Shown: in pieces, positions 21,766 through 23,297 of the stretch
Position numbering within the stretch: position 1 is the stretch's first letter
Layout: each line of letters starts with the position of its first letter
From: Haliotis cracherodii
Lineage: Eukaryota
DNA: 64,000 nucleotides
Direction: 5' to 3'
Assembly: GCF_022045235.1 (NCBI RefSeq)
Contig: NW_027266297.1
Span: forward strand, 44,826,001-44,890,000
Program-made: the position numbers and the translations under genes
Notes under the pieces: model-generated
The model's database searches: none
What the model was told of the DNA's origin: nothing
The model's input: the letters and a program-made list of their open reading frames with translations, nothing else

Positions 21766-23297
21766 ATGATGCCGTCTTTATCTTTAGCGCCTGCTGAATC
21801 GACACATTTTCGCGACATGCCGTCAGTATCAACTCTTCCTACGAGGTAAGTTATCCTCTTCTTTAACATTGAAAGCAGAAGCAATCGCATATGGGAGAAA
21901 CAATTTAATGTGTGTGTTATGATATTTACTTGATAGTGTATTGATTGTATGATTTATTAGGTTTTGTATAGGCATACTCGTAGAAGCAAAATGATTCGCG
22001 CATTTCAAAAACATGTATAGCGAGTACATTTTGATTTATATATTTTGATGCATATATACTTTAGTACAATGTATATAATTATATATTCCCGAACGAACTG
22101 TGACTAATTATTGATATGTTTTTTGTCAACTTGTTCCGATATCATTAAAGAAAAGAGAGACAGGACATCTCCCGCCGTAACTTATGTTTCACATAGAAAG
22201 CAACAGAAGACGATAGTTTGTGTTTGCCTCACTTATATCACATTTGTGTGTTTTAATATACTAAACTTACATCTTGTTTTGAACTGATGTAGTGTGCCTA
22301 TTTGAAAATAGTAACATTGTTTCAGATTGCCGAGCATCGAGATTGGGATTCAGTCCCGAATGAACTTTGTCAAAGGTAAATTTACTTCTGTAGTTAGTTT
22401 TAGATTTCCAAACGGGAATGTGTGTTGACAGAAAGGCCTGAAAAACATATGGATTAAATAAAACCGTTCTACCAGAAAACACGCCTCAGTATCTAGAATG
22501 TTTTAATTAAAATCTATTGAACTAAAACCAACGATTTAAGGACGTTATCTAATCAATACATTTGTGCTTTCAGATATAATAACCGGCCAAAGTCACATGG
22601 TCCTTATTATCTGCTCAATTTTTGTTGGAGGTGGTAAGTATATTTTCCACCACAGGTGTATAACTGGCAATTCAATCGCGTCAACACGGAATCCTCATCT
22701 TCTGCAAAACTTCACAATATAAAAGTAGCCCAAACTATATCTTCAGTATTTGGAGGAAATACAAATGTCTGACTTTTTCACTCTGTCTTGGATATACGTT
22801 GCTGCCAAGGTGAAGATTTATCAACACATGAGGGTGTTATGGGTGAACCGAAGCTATATTTGTGCCATAAAACAATGTTGTATCGAAAATGTTATTTTTC
22901 AGTTTTTGTTTCTCACAAATCATTGAGTCACGTTTCTGATTTTCCAGTGGTCATCGTGGGCATCTTCTTGGCCCTGAGGTCTTGTGCACGAAGATGCCAG
23001 ACAGTGGTCAGAGGTCACCACAGCGTTCGTGGATCTCTTGATGCCGCCGAGCGGGGCGATGCGAACGACGTTGTCTCCCTGGTTTCACACGAAGATTTCA
23101 CACTGGCTCCCAACACCCCGTGGTGGGAGGTCGTGGAGAGAAGAGAGGCGGAAGACCCCACTTTCGGTGAGGATTTGGTGATAGCACCAGAGTACTGTGT
23201 GGAAGACGAGGTTTTGAGCTATGACCCCGACTACTGCCTGAAGCCGGGCGCCCTCTGGTGGGAGGTGGTGGAGGCCCAAGAGAAGGCTGGGAGCTGA
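21766..23297 (+). CDS. Orphan single-pass membrane protein, copy 2; exons 21766-21845, 22326-22375, 22574-22633, 22948-23297; 179 aa
   Basis: GT-AG introns of phase 2,1,1 join in frame: MMPSLSLAPAESTHFRDMPSVSTLPTRLPSIEIGIQSRMNFVKDIITGQSH-MVLIICSIFVGGVVIVGIFLAL-RSCARRC...WWEVVE...WWEVVEAQEKAGS*. Donors are gtaagt, gtaaat and gtaagt. AATAAA lies at ~23636. Confidence 0.8.

What the first reader, a model, noticed from the sequence alone, without database searches (positions are those of the whole stretch)
23093..23297. Duplicated D[FY]xLxPxxxWWEVVE motif, invariant in all five copies: candidate LIR/AIM or kinesin-light-chain W-acidic pair
Seen in sequence: DFTLAPNTPWWEVVERRE and DYCLKPGALWWEVVEAQE lie about 45 residues apart in an acidic tail. 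From HEDF to the stop the protein is identical in all five copies, whereas the amino-acid differences between copies fall upstream. Established knowledge: W-x-x-V in an acidic context fits the Atg8-binding LIR core [WFY]xx[LIV] used by membrane-anchored autophagy receptors (TEX264, FUNDC1, BNIP3), and paired W-[DE] motifs recruit kinesin-1 light chain TPR domains (calsyntenin, SKIP, vaccinia A36). Inference: this may be a new membrane-anchored organelle-autophagy receptor or cargo adaptor. The copies are young, so identity alone is weak evidence of selection.
Basis: partly seen in the sequence, partly recalled or inferred. Interest (0 to 1): 0.7.

Follow-up and report, generated by a model that had tools for sequence, protein, structure and literature searches.

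The report
Abalone membrane adaptor with tunable repeat
These tandem genes encode an abalone membrane protein with no relatives found outside abalones; its acidic, tryptophan-bearing tail is strongly conserved, recurs up to 30 times in distant sister genes, and likely docks a partner inside the cell, but it does not fit the published autophagy (LIR) or kinesin-binding patterns.

Summary
The motif pair is real. It lies in the last exon of a spliced four-exon gene encoding a 179-aa single-pass protein. There are four complete tandem copies plus one copy of the last exon alone. Relatives were found only in Haliotis. The tail is under purifying selection (dN/dS 0.15 against an old paralogue), and charge bias predicts it is cytosolic. 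The whole 69-aa tail is conserved, spacer included, so the unit under selection is longer than a LIR or W-acidic core. Four distant paralogues on contig C45 carry 9 to 30 copies of a related module, [FYWV]xLx[PAS][GN]xxWx[DE][VI]. In these the second W, which a kinesin motif needs, is absent. None of 21 family proteins matches the xLIR or L/M-D/E-W-D/E patterns, and a bare LIR core arises in 88% of shuffled tails. Best reading: a membrane-tethered adaptor whose repeated aromatic-acidic module likely folds on binding one cytosolic partner, with repeat and gene number setting avidity. Atg8 binding stays possible (about 15%); kinesin light chain is unlikely (about 4%).

The parts
21732..21739 (+). 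TGACGTCA (CRE-like palindrome; label recalled) 34 nt before the start codon; found at the 5' end of 4 of 4 whole window copies, the C23 paralogue and 4 of 4 C45 genes
21766..21845 (+). coding part of exon 1 of copy 2 (80 nt, intron phase 2); S/T/P-rich N-terminus with no hydrophobic signal peptide
22326..22375 (+). exon 2 (50 nt, phase 1)
22574..22633 (+). exon 3 (60 nt, phase 1); first half of the transmembrane helix (residues 53-73)
22948..23297 (+). coding part of exon 4: end of the transmembrane helix, Arg/Cys-rich juxtamembrane stretch, acidic tail, stop
23094..23138 (+). module 1 core DFTLAPNTPWWEVVE
23139..23228 (+). conserved spacer (contains EAEDPTFG and EDLVIAPEY; the latter aligns with EDLVLEAPY of the C45 repeat)
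23229..23273 (+). module 2 core DYCLKPGALWWEVVE
19386..19735 (+). copy 1: last exon only (partial duplicate starting at 19362)
25693..27227 (+). copy 3, whole gene, start to stop (protein identical to P0011)
29286..30817 (+). copy 4, whole gene (protein identical to P0010)
32846..34365 (+). copy 5, whole gene (protein identical to P0012)

Best explanation
The gene is one of a tandem set of abalone single-pass membrane proteins whose conserved acidic tail is predicted to face the cytosol and likely docks a cytosolic partner through a repeated aromatic-acidic module of about 21 residues that is longer than, and does not match, the published LIR or kinesin W-acidic patterns. Shown: exon structure and spliced joints, one hydrophobic helix, selection concentrated on the tail, and relatives with 2 to 30 modules. 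Inferred steps: (1) the helix inserts N-out/C-in without a signal peptide; (2) the juxtamembrane Cys may be palmitoylated; (3) the N-terminal part serves mainly as a tether; (4) the tail is disordered alone and folds on binding one conserved partner, most likely a trafficking or cytoskeletal factor; (5) repeat number (2 here, 9-30 on C45) and gene copy number set avidity at the membrane. The partner was not identified.
For: Contigs bridge each of the three GT..AG introns with 50-61 letters a side in 3 of 4 laid runs from related abalones (these runs are RNA by guess only). One 21-residue helix; net charge 15 residues before it is -3 to +1 and after it +4 to +6 in 9 of 9 proteins scored; an N-glycosylation sequon precedes it in 4 of the 5 C23-type proteins scored. 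The AF2 model is confident only around the helix and scores mostly under 50 in the tail. Tail against the C23 paralogue: dS 0.49, dN 0.075, ratio 0.15, Fisher p 2e-6; among the five copies 0 amino-acid changes in the tail against 7 in the 46 codons before it, p 0.001. Invariant columns over 16 proteins: ectodomain 3 of 35, helix 3 of 21, motif 1 10 of 16, spacer 19 of 29, motif 2 13 of 16. A profile of the tail scores the first 200 residues of a C45 last exon at 33.3 bits against a best of 9.0 among 500 shuffles, 408 of which got a score. The C23 and C45a/b genes share intron phases 2-1-1 with the window gene, and all share the 5' TGACGTCA.
Against: No partner was found, and nothing here measures binding. 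Topology rests on the positive-inside rule (recalled), not on experiment. The 36-aa C45 repeat alone does not score above shuffles (8.7 bits against a best of 10.6); it links to the window module only through the non-repeat C45 modules, one of which runs into the same LPAGVLWADISPVEDLVLEAPY stretch as the repeat. 17 of 76 C45 modules have lost the W. The C45 helix is less hydrophobic and its start codon is uncertain, so C45 proteins may sit in another membrane. Conservation of the whole tail also fits a small folded or self-associating domain.
Confidence: 0.55

Rival explanations
1. The protein is a membrane-anchored selective-autophagy receptor. W-x-[DE]-[VI] would act as a non-textbook LIR, and the C45 genes would be highly multivalent Atg8 binders.
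For: The core [WFY]xx[LIV] is present in both modules of 17 of 17 named proteins and in 59 of 76 C45 modules. Acidic residues and a weakly predicted helix follow the core, and C-terminal helices can add affinity to LIRs (PMC7297954, passages). The genome encodes Atg8-family genes at 4 loci.
Against: 0 of 21 proteins match xLIR. The three residues before the W are not acidic, although most LIRs have acidic or phosphorylatable residues there; only the T of motif 1 is phosphorylatable. A core occurs in 88% of shuffled tails. A LIR does not explain the invariant L six residues upstream or the conserved spacer.
Confidence: 0.15
2. The module is a structural repeat: the C45 repeats would stack as a beta-solenoid with one 36-aa rung per repeat, and the short tails would fold or co-assemble only in multimers.
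For: AF2 models five C45 modules as a regular all-beta structure, three strands per repeat, pLDDT 64, pTM 0.61. Its best structural matches are wide beta-solenoids such as 9h78_B (Z 9.1, rmsd 3.5, 147 aligned), UreD and CsgA. An invariant L and a PG/PN turn suit a beta-arch.
Against: AF2 is reported to fold perfect repeats of random sequence into confident but unrealistic beta-solenoids (PMC11795689, abstract). The C45 exons are 21-22% D/E. Only 2 of 5 models exceed pLDDT 60. The window tail is modelled with helices over the same WWEVVE words. Foldseek gave no match at E <= 0.001.
Confidence: 0.12
3. The acidic tail faces a lumen or the outside and binds Ca2+ or mineral, as acidic shell-matrix proteins do (recalled).
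For: The tail is 24-26% D/E. The family was found only in abalones and has repeat expansions.
Against: Charge bias and N-terminal sequons point to N-out/C-in. Aromatic residues, L and P/G are the conserved positions, not the acid run.
Confidence: 0.07
4. The two W-E pairs recruit kinesin-1 light chain as a W-acidic pair.
For: Paired motifs on a membrane protein; L-W-W-E in motif 2 has L two residues before W-E in 17 of 17 proteins. Paired or serial motifs work by avidity (10.1101/2020.06.17.157255, passages).
Against: 0 of 21 proteins match L/M-D/E-W-D/E. Motif 1 has L at that place in only 3 of 17. C45 modules read W-A-D or W-C-E, with no W-[DE] at the aligned site.
Confidence: 0.04

Closest known systems
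Membrane-anchored LIR autophagy receptors (FUNDC1, TEX264, FAM134B/RETREG1, RTN3L; receptor roles recalled)
   Same: Membrane anchor, acidic tail predicted to be disordered, aromatic-x-x-aliphatic core, sometimes several copies.
   Different: No acidic run before the aromatic residue, no xLIR match, a much longer conserved unit, and no sequence relationship.
Kinesin-1 W-acidic cargo adaptors (SKIP, calsyntenin-1, vaccinia A36; named in PMC6214655)
   Same: Paired Trp-plus-acid words in a cytosolic tail.
   Different: Consensus L/M-D/E-W-D/E not met, and the W-[DE] pair is absent from the distant paralogues.
Transmembrane adaptor proteins and small single-pass proteins (LAT, PAG, recalled; TMIE, opalin, TMEM154, stannin as Atlas leads)
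   Same: Short ectodomain, one helix, juxtamembrane Cys and basic residues, motif-bearing tail.
   Different: Atlas scores were all under 0.9 (leads only) and the tail alone gave no usable hit. The aromatic position varies among F, Y and W, so phosphotyrosine signalling is not the shared feature.

Membership tests
LIR/AIM autophagy receptor | core [WFY]xx[LIV] | tested here: met
   2 modules in 17 of 17 named proteins, 59 of 76 C45 modules; a core also arises in 88% of shuffled tails
LIR/AIM autophagy receptor | [quoted passage not shown] | tested here: not met
   0 of 21 proteins (expression from PMC5119064; scan). The paper notes verified LIRs that the expression misses.
LIR/AIM autophagy receptor | acidic or phosphorylatable residues just before the core | tested here: inconclusive
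   Window motif 2 has G-A-L and C45 repeats G-V-L; motif 1 has N-T-P or N-T-S with a phosphorylatable T/S; acids lie 9 or more residues upstream
LIR/AIM autophagy receptor | motif in a cytosolic, disordered region | tested here: met
   By prediction only: charge bias and low pLDDT
LIR/AIM autophagy receptor | binds Atg8-family proteins at the LIR docking site and is degraded with cargo | not testable with these tools
   Needs binding and flux assays
KLC W-acidic adaptor | consensus L/M-D/E-W-D/E | tested here: not met
   0 of 21 proteins (consensus from 10.1101/2020.06.17.157255; scan)
KLC W-acidic adaptor | W-[DE] kept across relatives | tested here: not met
   Kept in 17 of 17 C34/C23-type proteins, but in 0 of 76 C45 modules at the aligned W
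KLC W-acidic adaptor | binds KLC TPR and activates transport | not testable with these tools
   Needs binding and transport assays
SNX-BAR-binding motif (SNX5/6 cargo) | [ILMV]x[FY]x[RK]x2-13 or [FYW]x[FY]x3-15, then hydrophobic-x-hydrophobic | tested here: not met
   Patterns from PMC7082075, compared by eye with the window tail: L-S-Y-D-P lacks the basic fifth residue and there is no aromatic-x-[FY]
Type III (N-out, no signal peptide) single-pass membrane protein | one hydrophobic helix, no N-terminal signal, positive charge after the helix | tested here: met
   (hydropathy and charge on 9 proteins); no dedicated topology predictor was run
beta-solenoid repeat protein (C45 paralogues) | stable stacked beta rungs | tested here: inconclusive
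   AF2 pLDDT 64, pTM 0.61, with a known bias of AF2 on near-perfect repeats

The most novel reading that the evidence does not exclude
Abalones evolved a family of membrane-tethered adaptors built on an undescribed Trp-acidic binding repeat. Its valency runs from 2 to about 30 modules per protein. The W-x-[DE]-[VI] core engages Atg8 or another conserved trafficking factor through a non-textbook, extended interface, which would make the C45 genes unusually multivalent organelle receptors.
Probability: 0.2. Interest if true: 0.75.

Novelty: new variant of a known kind. Interest (0 to 1): 0.4.

Why it matters
A tail under strong selection in a family with no relatives found outside one genus most likely binds something old and conserved, so it may reveal a new peptide-binding mode. 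The natural series of 2, 9, 14, 23 and 30 modules, with W-less variants mixed in, is a ready-made test of how valency tunes recruitment at a membrane. It also shows that a LIR-like core in an acidic, Trp-rich tail is weak evidence by itself.

Tried and rejected
Complex prediction of tail residues 105-179 with a stand-in GABARAP (L061, identical to the abalone exon over 66 residues): no answer, score 0.01 against a mark of 0.34, controls not folded; this is no evidence either way. No KLC complex was run. Run search: no RNA holder listed, all 'RNA?' labels are guesses; tissue could not be read from coded runs. Laying contigs on the C45a gene showed cover on exons B and C and contigs ending at the predicted acceptor (2129), but repeats crowded the joints table, so C45 splicing is not shown. 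Relatives outside Haliotis: none among 15 candidates, 1.84 billion representatives (1 hit, P0006), longer proteins (weak test), or viral contigs. The C45 search found nothing (weak test). Pfam: none for P0013 or P0004. The C45 repeats gave scattered Pfam scores: PlyB_C 29.9 bits over its cut-off of 27, but no stretch passing alone for member 1, plus VERL and DM13 under their cut-offs; read as summed repeat noise. PDB sequence searches gave no significant hit. The Atlas gave leads under 0.9 for the whole protein and nothing for the tail. The SNX-BAR motif was rejected. The 5' element shared by C45 genes and the PET100 upstream region is a dispersed repeat (1930 candidates, 40 scored), so it says nothing on origin. 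Four look-ups of earlier scan findings returned nothing.

Full report
Observation. Both motifs are present in frame in five copies, 45 residues apart. The copies lie in a tandem array of 3.6-3.9 kb units about 95-97% alike. Four copies hold four exons (80, 50, 60 and 350 coding nt, intron phases 2-1-1). The first copy starts inside intron 3 and has only the last exon. The four spliced proteins are identical to database proteins P0010-P0013, which their sources label uncharacterized proteins of Haliotis cracherodii. Contigs from runs of related abalones skip each intron at GT..AG ends with 50-61 letters a side in 3 of 4 runs laid. Those runs are RNA by guess only, and their tissue is not given.

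Anatomy. The 179-aa protein has an S/T/P-rich N-terminus without a hydrophobic signal, one helix at residues 53-73, an Arg/Cys-rich stretch, and a tail that is 24-26% D/E. Net charge after the helix exceeds that before it in 9 of 9 proteins scored, and 4 of the 5 C23-type proteins scored have an N-glycosylation sequon before it. By the positive-inside rule (recalled) the tail is cytosolic. AF2 is confident only around the helix; the tail scores mostly under 50, with weak helices over both WWEVVE words.

Selection. Among the five copies the tail has 1 variable site in 207 (synonymous), against 20 in 347 in the 3' UTR and 9 in 138 in the coding part just upstream, 7 of them amino-acid changes (Fisher p 0.0009 and 0.001). 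A paralogue on contig C23 (77% identical over the last exon) gives dS 0.49, dN 0.075, ratio 0.15 for the tail. The two paralogue types form two clades at 100/100 support, each holding proteins of all four named species, so the split is older than those species (16 of 17 proteins used, P0009 left out because its upstream exons differ). Over those 16 proteins the invariant columns are 3 of 35 in the ectodomain, 3 of 21 in the helix, 10 of 16 and 13 of 16 in the motifs, and 19 of 29 in the spacer. Codons 1-110 of the four whole copies show 10 amino-acid-changing and 4 silent variable codons, close to what no constraint would give. The tail is therefore the functional part, and the spacer matters as much as the motifs.

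Range and distant paralogues. Protein searches found relatives only in Haliotis. Inside G000, the last exon also hit three long frames on contig C45 at E 0.07-0.23, and a second search found four such genes plus two broken relics. Their last exons (385-1156 aa) begin with the end of a moderately hydrophobic helix and a basic stretch, then carry 14, 23, 9 and 30 modules, mostly within a 36-aa repeat. Homology is supported by BLASTP (16 of 24 identical, E 1e-6 pairwise, plus a second alignment in register over 30 residues), by a tail profile scoring 33.3 bits against a best shuffle of 9.0, by intron phases 2-1-1 in C45a/b and C23, and by TGACGTCA at the 5' end of 9 of 9 whole genes. Against it, the repeat alone does not beat shuffles (8.7 against 10.6 bits; 5 of the 231 scored shuffled-unit tandem controls reached it). 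The aligned module is acidic-hydrophobic-x5-[FYWV]-x-L-x-[PAS]-[GN]-x-x-W-x-[DE]-[VI]; only L and the first W are invariant in the 10 modules aligned, and 59 of 76 C45 modules keep the W.

LIR: the core is present but arises in 88% of 10,000 shuffled tails; 0 of 21 proteins match the xLIR expression, which a shuffled tail matches 22% of the time. Most LIRs have acidic or phosphorylatable residues before the core; here these are G-A-L, N-T-P or G-V-L. The core does survive in the C45 repeats, and some verified LIRs escape xLIR, so this reading is lowered, not excluded. KLC: 0 of 21 match L/M-D/E-W-D/E, and the second W is absent on C45.

Structure rival. AF2 folds five C45 modules into a regular beta structure (pLDDT 64, pTM 0.61) whose best matches are wide beta-solenoids (Z 9.1 to 7.5). 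Foldseek gave nothing at E <= 0.001. AF2 is reported to produce such solenoids for random perfect repeats, so this is weak.

Verdict. The best reading is a genus-restricted membrane-tethered adaptor whose long aromatic-acidic module likely folds on binding a conserved cytosolic partner, with repeat number and gene number setting avidity (0.55). Partner, membrane and tissue are not known.

Literature seen. Passages: PMC5119064, PMC6214655, 10.1101/2020.06.17.157255, PMC7082075, PMC7297954. Abstract and outline: PMC11795689. Search listings only. Searches for six LOC ids and four motif strings found 0 papers, and the listings showed no paper on this family. These searches cover main text only; no supplement was read, and supplementary tables of abalone transcriptome or proteome papers could list these genes with tissue data. 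Labels such as CRE, type III, palmitoylation and transmembrane adaptor are recalled and come from no call.

Noticed in passing
G000:C45:5456467-5472606 and 5793013-5799734 (L013-L017): Four paralogous genes, three in tandem, with last exons of 385-1156 aa made of a 36-aa acidic repeat. W-less variants (AADI, LADI) are interspersed. Among 27 units of one gene there are 9 silent and 11 amino-acid-changing variant codons. No database protein was found for them (weak test).
   Followed up: partly
L049:4800-5300 and L050:4000-4300: Two broken relics of the C45-type last exon, with stops and frameshifts.
   Followed up: partly
window 17499-19735: The database model P0009 joins the orphan last exon of copy 1 to different upstream exons (at 17499 and 17933), giving a weaker helix; it may be a chimeric gene or an annotation artefact.
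   Followed up: no
window 36170-37509: PET100-like gene just downstream of the array: Pfam PF09803 hit of 42 bits at 37408-37509, with a likely first exon at 36170.
   Followed up: partly
window 36044-36134: A roughly 90-bp dispersed element, 92-96% alike at many loci (1930 candidates, 40 scored); it sits just upstream of both PET100 and the C45 genes.
   Followed up: partly
window 21011-21100, 21436-21525 and equivalents in each unit: A 90-bp inverted pair (93% alike) about 430 bp apart, upstream of each whole gene copy, abundant in run contigs; probably a MITE-like transposon.
   Followed up: no
window 20421-20590 and other copies: Short interspersed repeat ending in (CACT)n, probably a tRNA-derived SINE (label recalled), present in most units and elsewhere.
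   Followed up: no
window 6824-10532 (-): Degenerate retroelement: RVT_1 hit at 7838-8740 with flanking frames that look gag-like and tyrosine-recombinase-like by eye, suggesting a DIRS-type element.
   Followed up: no
window 54977-57019, 62387-63201, 38292-38715, 39895-40415: Minisatellite arrays of period 28, 97, 34 and 55; the long ORF at 54879-57170 is a read-through of the 28-mer array.
   Followed up: no
L011:3741-7100 (-): 1120-aa open frame with no Pfam hit, downstream of the C23 paralogue.
   Followed up: no
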